Source of the DNA: Escherichia coli O127:H6 str. E2348/69
Lineage (GTDB): Bacteria > Pseudomonadota > Gammaproteobacteria > Enterobacterales > Enterobacteriaceae
DNA: 64,000 nt
Assembly (NCBI RefSeq): GCF_000026545.1
Contig: NC_011601.1
Reading direction: 5' to 3' (one strand)
The position numbers are program-made. Positions 16,592-19,500 of the stretch are shown one piece after another. Each line of letters starts with the position of its first letter. Position 1 is the stretch's first letter.

Positions 16592-19500
16592 TGAACCCGA
16601 CAGAATAAAATGAGATTGCAGGAAAATTCGGTTAACGGAGTGATCGAGTTAACGTTGTTAAGTTAAATATTGGTTTTAACTCTGATTTACATGGTTGCTG
16701 TGTTGTTAAATTGTACAAAGATGTTATAGAAACAAAATGTAACATCTCTATGGACACGCACACGGATAACAACTATGAACAAATCAGGGAAATACCTCGT
16801 CTGGACAGTGCTCTCTGTAATGGGAGCATTTGCTCTGGGATACATTGCTTTAAATCGTGGGGAACAGATCAACGCGCTGTGGATTGTGGTGGCGTCGGTC
16901 TGTATCTATCTGATCGCTTACCGTTTTTATGGGCTGTATATCGCCAAAAATGTGCTGGCGGTTGACCCGACGCGTATGACGCCAGCGGTGCGCCATAACG
17001 ACGGGCTGGACTATGTGCCGACGGACAAAAAAGTGCTGTTCGGTCACCATTTTGCGGCCATTGCCGGAGCAGGTCCGTTGGTTGGGCCGGTACTGGCGGC
17101 GCAAATGGGCTACCTGCCGGGGATGATCTGGCTGCTCGCCGGGGTGGTTCTCGCCGGTGCGGTGCAGGATTTCATGGTGCTGTTTGTTTCTACGCGCCGT
17201 GACGGTCGCTCGCTGGGTGAGCTGGTCAAAGAAGAGATGGGGCCAACCGCCGGGGTGATTGCGCTGGTGGCCTGCTTTATGATCATGGTCATTATCCTTG
17301 CCGTGCTGGCGATGATCGTGGTGAAAGCCCTGACTCATAGCCCGTGGGGAACGTATACCGTTGCGTTCACTATTCCGCTGGCGCTGTTTATGGGGATCTA
17401 TCTGCGCTATCTGCGTCCGGGGCGTATTGGCGAAGTGTCGGTCATCGGCCTGGTGTTCCTTATTTTCGCCATTATCTCTGGCGGCTGGGTGGCAGAAAGT
17501 CCGACCTGGGCACCGTACTTTGACTTTACCGGCGTGCAGCTGACCTGGATGCTGGTGGGTTACGGTTTTGTGGCGGCGGTGCTGCCAGTGTGGCTGTTGC
17601 TGGCCCCGCGCGACTACCTCTCAACCTTCCTGAAAATCGGGACTATCGTCGGTCTGGCGGTGGGCATTTTGATTATGCGCCCGACGCTGACCATGCCTGC
17701 GCTAACTAAATTTGTCGATGGCACTGGCCCGGTATGGACCGGTAACCTGTTCCCGTTCCTGTTTATCACCATCGCCTGTGGCGCGGTGTCTGGCTTCCAT
17801 GCACTGATCTCTTCCGGCACTACACCGAAGATGCTGGCGAACGAAGGGCAGGCGTGCTTTATCGGCTACGGTGGGATGTTGATGGAATCCTTCGTGGCGA
17901 TTATGGCGCTGGTTTCCGCCTGTATCATCGATCCGGGTGTGTACTTCGCCATGAACAGCCCGATGGCGGTGCTGGCTCCGGCAGGGACGGCGGATGTGGT
18001 TGCTTCTGCCGCGCAGGTGGTGAGTAGCTGGGGCTTTGCGATTACCCCGGATACGCTAAACCAGATTGCCAGCGAAGTGGGTGAACAGTCGATCATTTCT
18101 CGTGCGGGCGGTGCGCCGACCCTGGCGGTGGGGATGGCCTACATTCTGCACGGTGCGCTGGGCGGCATGATGGATGTGGCGTTCTGGTATCACTTCGCCA
18201 TTCTGTTTGAAGCACTGTTTATTCTGACGGCGGTGGATGCGGGTACGCGTGCTGCGCGCTTTATGTTGCAGGATCTGCTGGGCGTGGTGTCTCCGGGCCT
18301 GAAACGGACCGATTCACTGCCTGCTAACCTGCTGGCAACGGCGCTGTGCGTGCTGGCGTGGGGCTACTTCCTGCATCAGGGCGTGGTCGATCCGCTGGGC
18401 GGTATTAACACCTTGTGGCCGCTGTTTGGTATTGCCAACCAGATGCTGGCAGGGATGGCGCTGATGCTCTGTGCTGTGGTGCTGTTCAAAATGAAACGTC
18501 AACGTTACGCCTGGGTGGCGCTGGTACCAACGGCCTGGCTGCTGATTTGTACCCTGACCGCAGGCTGGCAGAAAGCGTTTAGCCCGGATGCGAAAGTCGG
18601 CTTCCTGGCGATTGCTAACAAGTTCCAGGCAATGATCGACAGCGGCAATATTCCGTCGCAGTATACTGAGTCACAACTGGCGCAACTGGTGTTCAACAAC
18701 CGTCTGGATGCCGGATTAACCATCTTCTTTATGGTGGTTGTGGTGGTTCTGGCGCTGTTCTCGATTAAGACGGCACTGGTGGCATTGAAAGAGCCGAAGC
18801 CAACGGCGAAAGAAACGCCATATGAGCCGATGCCGGAAAATGTCGAGGAGATCGTGGCGCAGGCGAAAGGCGCGCACTAAAGTCAGAGTGAGGGGGAATG
18901 TGCTGAGCGTTCCCCTTACTCTCATCCCGAGCGTGTTGATAGCAATTAAGCCCTCTTAATTCAGGAGGGCATTTGTATTACCGGAGGTTTAGATGTTTGA
19001 TTCACTGGCAAAAGCCGGAAAATATTTAGGTCAGGCGGCGAAACTGATGATTGGTATGCCTGATTACGACAACTATGTCGAACATATGCGGGTTAACCAT
19101 CCCGATCAAACGCCGATGACCTACGAAGAGTTTTTCCGTGAGCGGCAGGACGCGCGCTACGGTGGAAAAGGCGGCGCGCGCTGCTGCTAAATATGTACGT
19201 CAGGCTTTAAACGATTCCACTTTTTCGAACGCTGCACGCAACGTACCTGGTGTCAGCGTGACCGGCAGGTAATGAATGGATTCCACCGGGCGTAGGGTGT
19301 GGGCAATCATTTTGTCGATCTCCACCTGATTATTGATATCCACTTCCAGCTCCGCCAGCGTAGTCGGCAGATGAAAACGCTGATACGCTCCAGTTAATTG
19401 CGCGAGCACATCATCCTGACCCAGCAAGGCGCTTTGCACCAGAATTCCGTAGGCGACTTTGGTGCCGTGGAGAAACTTCTCGGTTTGTGGCAAAACGGTC

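What the first reader, a model, noticed from the sequence alone, without database searches (positions are those of the whole stretch)
16595..16774. cstA upstream region: GTTAAC-flanked CRP-like element and GGA motifs near the start
The spacer contains TTAACGGAGTGATCGAGTTAAC, a partially symmetric element with a TGA-N6-like half site, plus GGA motifs (tatGGAcacgcacacGGAtaacaact) just upstream of the cstA ATG. That fits known CRP activation and CsrA translational repression of cstA. I could not match the sites exactly by eye.
Basis: partly seen in the sequence, partly recalled or inferred. Interest (0 to 1): 0.15.

Follow-up and report, generated by a model that had tools for sequence, protein, structure and literature searches.

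The report
Known cstA promoter and leader controls
The 180-base spacer in front of the E. coli pyruvate-transporter gene cstA holds its already published CRP activator site and its CsrA- and GcvB-targeted leader, so the finding is correct but ordinary, apart from one minority base change in this strain's CRP site.

Summary
The window is E. coli E2348/69.

**CRP site.** The CRP-like element is real. Its core, AGTGATCGAGTTAACG (16639-16654), matches the CRP site found by ChIP-seq at cstA in ETEC, except for A->G at 16654. It is centred at -89.5 from the published transcription start (16736). A weight matrix built from 106 other ChIP sites scores it 9.6 bits, the only good hit in the spacer. The CRP contact bases, and their 81-83 bp spacing to the core promoter, are nearly invariant in 80 Enterobacteriaceae species. 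The left GTTAAC is not conserved, so the "GTTAAC-flanked" symmetry is incidental.

**Leader.** The two GGA motifs (16752, 16764) lie in the 39-nt leader. The second sits in GCACACGGAU, identical to the glgC CsrA site, and overlaps the Shine-Dalgarno. Two further GGA motifs (16788, 16803) lie in the first codons. The Shine-Dalgarno GGA (78/80 species) and the codon-5 GGA (80/80, held at a synonymous position) are the deeply conserved pair.

**Verdict.** Already known, low interest. The only local novelty is the G at 16654, found in about 3.5% of E. coli genomes, at a position invariant elsewhere.

The parts
16622..16636 (.). Fis-motif match 1 (GAAAATTCGGTTAAC). Probably 'Fis1' of Gasperotti et al. 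2020.
   Evidence: One of only two matches to G-N3-R-N5-Y-N3-C in 16560-16690. It lies in the -200..-120 range next to the CRP site, and carries -4A/+4T, which the paper says hinders Fis binding and fits its remark that both sites hold a base that reduces binding. The motif itself is uninformative: 1139 matches in the window against 1074 by chance.
16631..16645 (.). Fis-motif match 2 (GTTAACGGAGTGATC), overlapping the left half of the CRP site. Probably 'Fis2'.
   Evidence: and PMC7730263. The left GTTAAC (16631-16636) supplies C+7 of match 1 and G-7 of match 2. That hexamer is not conserved outside Escherichia.
16636..16657 (.). 22-bp cAMP-CRP binding site. Core is AGTGA-TCGAGT-TAACG at 16639-16654, centre 16646.5, which is -89.5 from the transcription start.
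   Evidence: Same 16-mer as the ETEC ChIP-seq CRP site apart from the last base. Weight-matrix score 9.62 bits, best in the spacer. G5, T6, G7, A8, T9, C10, T15, C18 and A19 are each kept in 78-80 of 80 species, with a fixed 81-83 bp spacing to the core promoter.
16654..16654 (.). G instead of A at CRP position 19: a minority allele of this strain.
   Evidence: A in K-12 and in 80 of 80 other species. The 48-mer carrying G is exact in 187 of 5384 E. coli genomes; the one carrying A is exact in 5125. The change costs about 2 bits (11.59 to 9.62). G is still seen at this position in 20 of 106 ChIP sites.
16662..16668 (.). Conserved A/T block (majority form GTAAAT) at -74..-68. Possibly the docking site for the RNA polymerase alpha C-terminal domain just downstream of CRP.
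   Evidence: At least 90% conserved in 80 species. The position is about 18 bp downstream of the CRP centre. The function is inferred, not tested.
16703..16708 (+). -35 hexamer TTGTTA
   Evidence: Lies inside the conserved GGTTGTTAAA block. It is 16 bp from the -10 element.
16722..16730 (+). Extended -10 element: TG-T-TATAGA
   Evidence: Start of a 25-nt block (16722-16746) that is invariant in Escherichia, Citrobacter and Salmonella and nearly so in 80 species. The strict consensus scan found no promoter because the hexamer lacks the final T.
16736..16774 (+). 39-nt cstA 5' untranslated leader; transcription start at 16736.
   Evidence: The cstA mRNA sequence used by Leistra et al. 2018 starts AATGTAAC with the start codon at position 40. 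Its position in the window was confirmed. The start site was not measured here.
16744..16756 (+). Pairing site for GcvB seed R3 (GcvB nt 159-171). The 9-bp perfect core CUAUGGACA is at 16748-16756.
   Evidence: Duplex computed. G-22 (16753) pairs with C162 of GcvB, the pair verified by compensatory mutation in PMC9299463.
16750..16754 (+). AUGGA: the upstream GGA motif, probably CsrA site 1.
   Evidence: A GGA at this position is present in only 19 of 80 species. It overlaps the GcvB R3 site.
16758..16767 (+). GCACACGGAU: CsrA site overlapping the Shine-Dalgarno (ACGGA at -13..-9).
   Evidence: Identical 10-mer in the glgC leader. Review statement that one CsrA site overlaps the Shine-Dalgarno. 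A GGA at -16..-7 is present in 78 of 80 species. It sits within the C/A-rich stretch predicted to pair with GcvB R1 (16752-16774).
16786..16790 (+). AGGGA across codons 4-6 (TCA GGG AAA), probably CsrA site 3.
   Evidence: GGA present in 80 of 80 species. The Gly codon is GGG in 74 and GGA in 6, and never GGC or GGT, although those two make up 72% of Gly codons elsewhere in cstA.
16801..16805 (+). CUGGA across the Trp-Thr codons, probably CsrA site 4 (a secondary site).
   Evidence: The only CTGGA in 16736-16875. Kulkarni et al. attribute CTGGA as a secondary site to the cstA footprinting study. Present in 22 of 80 species.

Best explanation
This is the regulatory region of cstA, the pyruvate/peptide transporter gene induced by carbon starvation. 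Three known layers of control act on it.

1. **Transcription.** A weak sigma-70 promoter (TTGTTA, 16 bp, TG-n-TATAGA, start at 16736) depends on cAMP-CRP bound to an imperfect site at 16639-16654, centred near -90. This is a class I-type arrangement, in which CRP recruits RNA polymerase through the alpha C-terminal domain. Fis, abundant in early exponential growth, represses, probably by binding over or beside the CRP site.
2. **Translation, by CsrA.** CsrA binds GGA motifs in the unstructured 39-nt leader and the first codons. The Shine-Dalgarno site (GCACACGGAU) and the codon-5 AGGGA are the conserved pair, 24 nt apart, and could be bridged by one CsrA dimer. Bound CsrA excludes the 30S subunit.
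3. **Translation, by GcvB.** The Hfq-dependent small RNA GcvB also represses. Seed R3 pairs with CUAUGGACA over the upstream GGA, and seed R1 pairs with the C/A-rich stretch over the Shine-Dalgarno.

**Basis of each step.**
- Shown in the literature: crp dependence, CRP occupancy in vivo, Fis repression, CsrA binding and ribosome exclusion, and GcvB pairing at G-22.
- Shown here: exact coordinates, weight-matrix rank, deep conservation, the synonymous-site constraint, and the allele frequency.
- Inferred: the assignment of the four GGA motifs to the four published CsrA sites, the alpha C-terminal domain docking block, and CsrA bridging.
For: **CRP**
- The 16-mer equals the ETEC ChIP-seq site for cstA but for one base.
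- Genomic SELEX lists cstA as a CRP target.
- A crp deletion abolishes PcstA activity, and a fis deletion raises it.
- Weight-matrix score is 9.62 bits, the only strong hit in the spacer.
- The CRP contact positions are invariant in 80 species, at a fixed 81-83 bp from the promoter block.
- Haycocks et al. report about -92.5 as one of the two commonest CRP positions.

**CsrA**
- A review states there are up to four sites, one over the Shine-Dalgarno, with toeprints showing ribosome exclusion.
- A CLIP-seq peak is reported at cstA.
- GCACACGGAT is shared with the glgC leader.
- GGA is enriched.
- The Shine-Dalgarno GGA is kept in 78/80 species and the codon-5 GGA in 80/80, with no GGC or GGT Gly codon.

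**GcvB**
- Verified target using R1 and R3, with the compensatory pair G-22C/C162G.
- The 9-bp perfect duplex computed here places G-22 at 16753.
Against: - The CRP core is weak by consensus (7 of 10 here, 8 of 10 in K-12) and is not above chance on mismatch counting.
- Its centre, -89.5, is 3 bp off the canonical -92.5. Gasperotti et al. call the distance unusual.
- The transcription start is taken from a sequence used in a modelling paper, not measured here. The -10 hexamer's A at position 2 is C in many genera (TCTAGA), so the exact promoter register is not secure.
- The primary footprinting papers (Schultz & Matin 1991; Dubey et al. 2003) could not be read. Matching the four GGA motifs to sites 1-4 is therefore my inference.
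- The GGA motifs are not in hairpin loops; the leader folds no better than shuffles (z = +1.27).
- The Shine-Dalgarno GGA would be conserved for ribosome binding alone.
Confidence: 0.9

Rival explanations
1. The upstream GGA (16752-16754) is mainly a GcvB R3 pairing site rather than a CsrA site. The reader's 'two GGA motifs for CsrA' would then mix two different regulators.
For: There is a 9-bp perfect complement to GcvB nt 159-167 centred on this GGA, verified at G-22 by compensatory mutation. A GGA is present here in only 19 of 80 species. Its match to the CsrA consensus beyond AUGGA is poor (my own comparison with the SELEX consensus, recalled from memory).
Against: The literature reports up to four CsrA sites in the cstA leader. 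AUGGA fits the ANGGA consensus, and ATGGA is on a published list of primary CsrA sites. The two uses are not exclusive and may compete.
Confidence: 0.35
2. The GTTAAC...GTTAAC symmetric element is a separate palindromic operator for another dimeric regulator (Fis or an unknown factor), distinct from CRP.
For: GTTAAC occurs twice, 17 bp apart. The left copy contributes the key G and C of the only two Fis-motif matches in the region. Fis represses cstA and was captured on this DNA.
Against: The left GTTAAC is not conserved outside Escherichia; the majority base at these columns is shared by fewer than 60% of the 80 species. The right copy is conserved only as the CRP half-site TTAACA. The Fis motif is at chance density, and both matches carry the base said to hinder Fis binding (-4A, with +4T in match 1).
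Confidence: 0.15
3. The conserved AGTGATC-N4-TTAACA element is bound by a CRP/FNR-family or other factor that is not CRP.
For: The right half-site departs from TCACA at the strongly preferred C in every species. The left half, GTGAT, resembles the FNR half-site TTGAT (my own comparison).
Against: CRP ChIP-seq peak with this motif. Genomic SELEX with cAMP-CRP. A crp deletion abolishes expression. The match to the FNR consensus is only 6 of 10, against 8 of 10 for CRP (own count). Nine of 106 ChIP sites also carry A at that half-site position.
Confidence: 0.04
4. The motifs are chance matches in an AT-rich spacer and have no function.
For: The mismatch-count scan is below the chance level. No promoter was found by the strict consensus scan.
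Against: There is invariance across 80 species at exactly the CRP contact positions, with fixed spacing. There is a synonymous-site constraint at codon 5. Published in vivo binding and genetics also argue against chance.
Confidence: 0.01

Closest known systems
E. coli K-12 cstA promoter and CRP site (Schultz & Matin 1991; CRP ChIP-seq in ETEC H10407, Haycocks et al. 2015; Fis repression, Gasperotti et al. 2020)
   Same: Orthologous locus. The region from -215 to +56 relative to the start codon is 98% identical to MG1655. It has the same CRP 16-mer, the same spacing and the same two Fis-motif matches.
   Different: One base inside the CRP core (16654 G instead of A) lowers the weight-matrix score by about 2 bits. 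Four further spacer substitutions lie outside the conserved blocks.
CsrA-repressed cstA leader (Dubey et al. 2003) and its model, the glgC leader (Baker et al. 2002)
   Same: The leader is identical to K-12 from the transcription start through codon 19. The GCACACGGAU 10-mer is shared with glgC. One site overlaps the Shine-Dalgarno, and the mechanism is ribosome exclusion.
   Different: Nothing differs from K-12. Unlike glgC, where the shared 10-mer is followed by complementary bases (GCACACGGAUUGUGUGUG), the cstA sites are in unstructured RNA (also noted in PMC6028588).
GcvB small-RNA targets that use two seeds (gdhA, cstA, sucC; Miyakoshi et al. 2021)
   Same: Same sequence as the verified K-12 target. 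R3 pairs at -31..-19, and R1 pairs on the C/A-rich stretch.
   Different: None in this strain. Across genera the R3 complement (CUAUGGACA) is not conserved. In Citrobacter and Salmonella the stretch reads CUCUGGAACA.
Class I CRP-dependent promoters with distal sites (about -92.5)
   Same: A single CRP site lies upstream of a weak sigma-70 promoter. A conserved A/T block lies where the alpha C-terminal domain would dock.
   Different: The centre computed here is -89.5, 3 bp from the canonical phase. The right half-site is conserved in an imperfect form (TAACA).

Membership tests
cAMP-CRP binding site | Two-fold symmetric TGTGA-N6-TCACA core that scores like known sites | tested here: met
   The core AGTGA-N6-TAACG matches 7 of 10 positions. 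It scores 9.62 bits on a matrix built from 106 ChIP sites (16th percentile of those sites), ranks 12th of 63,985 positions in the window, and is the best hit in the spacer. On mismatch counting alone it is not above chance.
cAMP-CRP binding site | Occupied by CRP in vivo or in vitro | not testable with these tools
   Published for the A allele: a ChIP-seq peak at cstA in ETEC carrying AGTGATCGAGTTAACA, and genomic SELEX. The G allele of this strain has not been tested.
cAMP-CRP binding site | Target gene expression depends on crp | not testable with these tools
   Published: a crp deletion abolishes PcstA-lux activity in K-12 (PMC7730263).
cAMP-CRP binding site | Contact positions conserved among orthologous promoters | tested here: met
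   G5, G7, A8, C10, T15, C18 and A19 are kept in 80 of 80 species; T6 in 78 of 80; T9 in 79 of 80. The central spacer is free to vary.
Class I CRP-activated promoter | Site centred near -61.5, -72.5, -82.5 or -92.5, on one face of the helix | tested here: inconclusive
   The centre is -89.5 using the transcription start implied by the published mRNA sequence, which is 3 bp from -92.5. The start site was not measured here. The spacing to the -10 block is held at 81-83 bp in nearly all of the 80 species.
CsrA-repressed mRNA leader | Two or more GGA motifs near the start, one overlapping the Shine-Dalgarno | tested here: met
   GGA at -23, -11, +14 and +29 relative to the start codon. ACGGA at -13..-9 is the Shine-Dalgarno. 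Enrichment P is 0.007.
CsrA-repressed mRNA leader | GGA presented in the loop of a hairpin (high-affinity form) | tested here: not met
   The leader has no stable structure: MFE -8.4 kcal/mol, z = +1.27 against shuffles. This agrees with the published remark that the cstA sites lie outside stem-loops. It is not a strict requirement for membership.
CsrA-repressed mRNA leader | Direct CsrA binding and translational repression | not testable with these tools
   Published: gel shifts, footprints and toeprints (summarised in PMC7652899) and a CLIP-seq peak (PMC5694010). The primary paper is not held in the library.
GcvB small-RNA target | Complementarity to a GcvB seed region (R1 or R3) near the ribosome binding site | tested here: met
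   R3 nt 159-167 (UGUCCAUAG) is the perfect complement of 16748-16756, extending to nt 171 with one mismatch. R1 is predicted to pair with 16752-16774 at -18.8 kcal/mol.
GcvB small-RNA target | Repression lost by a seed mutation and restored by a compensatory change | not testable with these tools
   Published for K-12: G-22C in cstA with C162G in GcvB (PMC9299463). The leader here is identical.

The most novel reading that the evidence does not exclude
The A->G change at 16654 (CRP position 19) weakens CRP binding enough to shift the cAMP threshold or the timing of cstA induction, and hence stationary-phase pyruvate uptake, in this EPEC lineage. About 3.5% of complete E. coli genomes carry it. 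The position is A in 80 of 80 other Enterobacteriaceae species and in about 95% of E. coli.
Probability: 0.25. Interest if true: 0.25.

Novelty: already known. Interest (0 to 1): 0.08.

Why it matters
It matters little beyond annotation. The region is a textbook case of layered control of a starvation transporter: CRP activation, Fis repression, and translational repression by CsrA and GcvB.

This analysis adds four things:
- Exact coordinates for each element in this strain.
- Evidence that the CRP site and its spacing are fixed across the family, while the GTTAAC symmetry is incidental.
- Evidence that the Shine-Dalgarno GGA and a codon-5 GGA, held at a synonymous site in 80 of 80 species, form the ancestral GGA pair.
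- A minority single-base variant in this strain's CRP site that could be tested as a natural regulatory polymorphism.

Tried and rejected
- **Consensus mismatch scan** for TGTGA-N6-TCACA with up to 3 mismatches gave 164 hits against 217 expected, so it was useless for this weak site. I replaced it with a weight matrix built from published ChIP sites.
- **Strict sigma-70 and terminator scan** of 16400-16900 found nothing. The promoter was placed from the published mRNA 5' end and from conservation instead.
- **Degenerate Fis motif scan** of the whole window gave 1139 hits, about the chance level. Only the two local matches are reported.
- **Rfam search** of 16300-17100 at E <= 1 gave no match. 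Folding the leader showed no structure better than shuffles. So there is no riboswitch or structured leader element.
- **Inverted repeat** GATGTTA-N13-TAACATC (16720-16746), spanning the -10 element and the transcription start, was considered as an operator. I rejected it because the left arm varies (TGTTA, TGTTC, TGATC, TGCTA) while the right arm stays TAACA, with no compensating change.
- **Other CRP registers** nearer the promoter (16704, 16722, 16739) score 3.2 bits or less.
- **Primary papers.** Dubey et al. 2003 (DOI and PMC165747) and Dubey et al. 2005 (PMC1370842) are not held in the library, and no search turned up Schultz & Matin 1991. A full-text search for GCACACGGAU found nothing. 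That the 10-mer was the published search string is my recollection; its identity with the glgC leader was verified directly.
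Full report
**Identity of the locus.** The stretch 16400-17000 is 100% identical to E. coli E2348/69 and is annotated entH / cstA in more than 5,380 complete E. coli genomes. entH ends at 16594, and cstA (701 aa) starts at 16775. The finding's coordinates, 16595-16774, are therefore exactly the 180-nt entH-cstA spacer, which is 34% GC against 52% for the window.

**Checking the observation.** TTAACGGAGTGATCGAGTTAAC is at 16632-16653, with GTTAAC at 16631 and 16648. TATGGACACGCACACGGATAACAACT is at 16749-16774, with GGA at 16752 and 16764.

**CRP site: what the sequence alone shows.**
- The best register is AGTGA-TCGAGT-TAACG (16639-16654), which has 3 of 10 mismatches to TGTGA-N6-TCACA.
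- Counting mismatches is uninformative: 164 sites that good or better occur in the window, against 217 expected by chance.
- I built a symmetrised weight matrix from the 106 other CRP sites listed in the ETEC H10407 ChIP-seq table (PMC4287617), leaving out cstA's own site.
- On that matrix the site scores 9.62 bits. It ranks 12th of 63,985 positions in the window, and the next hit in the spacer scores 3.2 bits. Shuffled spacers reach 9.62 bits in 2.3% of trials.

**CRP site: the literature.**
- The same ChIP-seq table assigns the motif AGTGATCGAGTTAACA to the peak at cstA. That is the window's 16-mer except for its last base.
- Genomic SELEX with cAMP-CRP also recovers cstA.
- Gasperotti et al. 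place the Schultz-Matin CRP site within -200..-120 of the start codon; here it lies at -136..-121. They describe it as about 80 nt upstream of the transcription start. They also show that a crp deletion abolishes PcstA activity.
- The cstA mRNA sequence used by Leistra et al. starts AATGTAAC with the start codon at position 40. That puts the start at 16736 and the CRP centre at -89.5.
- Haycocks et al. note that about -92.5 is one of the two commonest CRP positions. The arrangement is therefore a distal class I type, 3 bp off the canonical phase.

**CRP site: conservation.** I fetched cstA loci from 80 Enterobacteriaceae species with 91-100% protein identity.
- In all of them an AGTGATC-N3/4-T(T/A)A(A/G)CA element sits upstream of the core-promoter block. 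The spacing is 81-83 bp in 75 of the 80 species.
- Column counts are: G5 80/80, T6 78, G7 80, A8 80, T9 79, C10 80, T15 80, C18 80 and A19 80. The three central bases vary freely. This is the signature of a CRP site.
- The imperfect right half (TAACA rather than TCACA) is itself conserved, which suggests selection for a weak site. That last point is inference.
- The left GTTAAC (16631-16636) is not conserved: the majority base at these columns is shared by only 30-55% of species. In Citrobacter and Salmonella the stretch reads GGTGAATG or AAAAAGG.
- The "GTTAAC-flanked" symmetry is therefore an Escherichia-specific accident. The right GTTAAC is just the CRP half-site.

**A strain-specific twist.**
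- Position 16654 (CRP position 19) is G here. It is A in K-12 and in 80 of 80 other species.
- A 48-mer spanning it is exact in 187 of 5,384 E. coli genomes in the G form, and in 5,125 in the A form.
- The change costs about 2 bits (11.59 to 9.62). That moves the site from the 34th to the 16th percentile of ChIP sites.
- G occurs at that position in 20 of 106 bona fide sites, so any effect is probably modest.

**Fis.** Gasperotti et al. identified Fis as a repressor and proposed two motif matches next to the CRP site.
- The only matches to their motif in 16560-16690 are 16622-16636 and 16631-16645.
- Both use the left GTTAAC. Both carry -4A (match 1 also +4T), which the paper says hinders Fis binding and fits its remark that each site holds at least one base that reduces binding.
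- The motif is at chance density in the window, and this stretch is not conserved. I regard these sites as plausible but weakly supported.

**Core promoter.**
- Conserved blocks are GGTTGTTAAA (the -35 hexamer TTGTTA, 16703-16708) and a 25-nt block, TGTTATAGAAACAAAATGTAACATC (16722-16746). That block is invariant in Escherichia, Citrobacter and Salmonella and nearly so elsewhere.
- It contains TG-n-TATAGA, an extended -10 element, 16 bp from the -35 hexamer.
- The strict consensus scan missed it.
- In many genera the hexamer reads TCTAGA, so the exact -10 register is not secure.
- A conserved GTAAAT block at -74..-68 (16662-16668) lies where the alpha C-terminal domain of RNA polymerase would dock next to CRP. 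This is inference.

**Leader and CsrA.**
- The 39-nt leader plus the first codons carry four GGA motifs: AUGGA (16750-54), ACGGA (16762-66), AGGGA (16786-90) and CUGGA (16801-05).
- The enrichment is significant: shuffle P is 0.007 for GGA and 0.003 for ANGGA.
- GCACACGGAT (16758-16767) also occurs in the glgC leader. This matches the review statement that cstA was found through sequence identity to glgC. The same review says cstA has up to four CsrA sites, one over the Shine-Dalgarno, and that bound CsrA blocks the ribosome.
- CTGGA is credited to the cstA footprinting study as a secondary site and occurs only once in the region.
- A CsrA CLIP-seq peak at cstA is reported.
- The leader is unstructured, as the literature notes, and Rfam has no match.

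Conservation of the four GGA motifs across 80 species:

| Motif | Window position | Species with a GGA there |
|---|---|---|
| Upstream AUGGA | 16750-54 | 19/80 |
| Shine-Dalgarno ACGGA | 16762-66 | 78/80 |
| Codon-5 AGGGA | 16786-90 | 80/80 |
| Trp-Thr CUGGA | 16801-05 | 22/80 |

At codon 5 the Gly codon is GGG in 74 species and GGA in 6. It is never GGC or GGT, although those two make up 72% of Gly codons elsewhere in cstA. The deeply conserved pair is therefore the Shine-Dalgarno site and the codon-5 site, 24 nt apart.

- Miyakoshi et al. verified cstA as a GcvB target that needs both the R1 and R3 seeds. R3 nt 159-171 are the pairing bases, and the compensatory pair is G-22C / C162G.
- I fetched gcvB from MG1655 and computed the duplex. 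GcvB 159-167 (UGUCCAUAG) is the perfect complement of CUAUGGACA (16748-16756).
- G-22 is 16753, the middle base of the upstream GGA.
- R1 is predicted to pair with the C/A-rich 16752-16774.

**Verdict.** Everything functional here is already published: CRP in 1991 and 2015, CsrA in 2003, Fis in 2020 and GcvB in 2021. The new details are precise coordinates, the non-conservation of the GTTAAC flank, the synonymous-site constraint on the codon-5 GGA, and the minority A->G allele in the CRP site. Interest is low.

Noticed in passing
window 29486-29501: AGTGATTTGCGTCACA is the best CRP weight-matrix hit in the window (15.7 bits). It lies in the rna-rnk spacer, about 120-135 nt upstream of rnk. The identical 16-mer is listed as the ChIP-seq CRP site for rnk in ETEC H10407.
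   Followed up: partly
window 37419-37434: TTTGATTTATTTCACA is the second-best CRP hit (13.7 bits). It lies in the divergent dpiB-citC spacer of the citrate fermentation cluster. It is not in the ETEC ChIP table that I read.
   Followed up: no
window 16722-16746: A 25-nt block spanning the -10 element, the transcription start and the first 11 nt of the mRNA (TGTTATAGAAACAAAATGTAACATC) is invariant across Escherichia, Citrobacter and Salmonella and nearly so in 80 species. That is more than a -10 hexamer needs. The conserved mRNA 5' end AAUGUAACAUC is unexplained. An operator-type inverted repeat was rejected.
   Followed up: partly
window 16662-16668: A conserved A/T block (majority GTAAAT) lies at -74..-68, about 18 bp downstream of the CRP centre, where the alpha C-terminal domain of RNA polymerase would be expected. 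Not described in the papers I could read.
   Followed up: partly
window 16560-16700: No intrinsic-terminator-like hairpin lies between the entH stop (16594) and the cstA promoter, which run in the same orientation. Read-through from the iron-regulated entCEBAH operon into cstA cannot be excluded from the sequence.
   Followed up: no
window 18993-19190 and 19200-20288: cstA is followed by the small ybdD gene (YbdD/YjiX family), mirroring btsT-yjiX. The next gene, hcxA (ybdH), on the opposite strand, is cited as another GcvB target.
   Followed up: no
L058, L060, L073 (Atlantibacter; one record titled Citrobacter freundii): In these loci the conserved CRP site and promoter block lie about 120 nt from the start codon, against about 53 nt elsewhere. 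The leader is therefore about 67 nt longer, so an insertion in the leader is likely.
   Followed up: no
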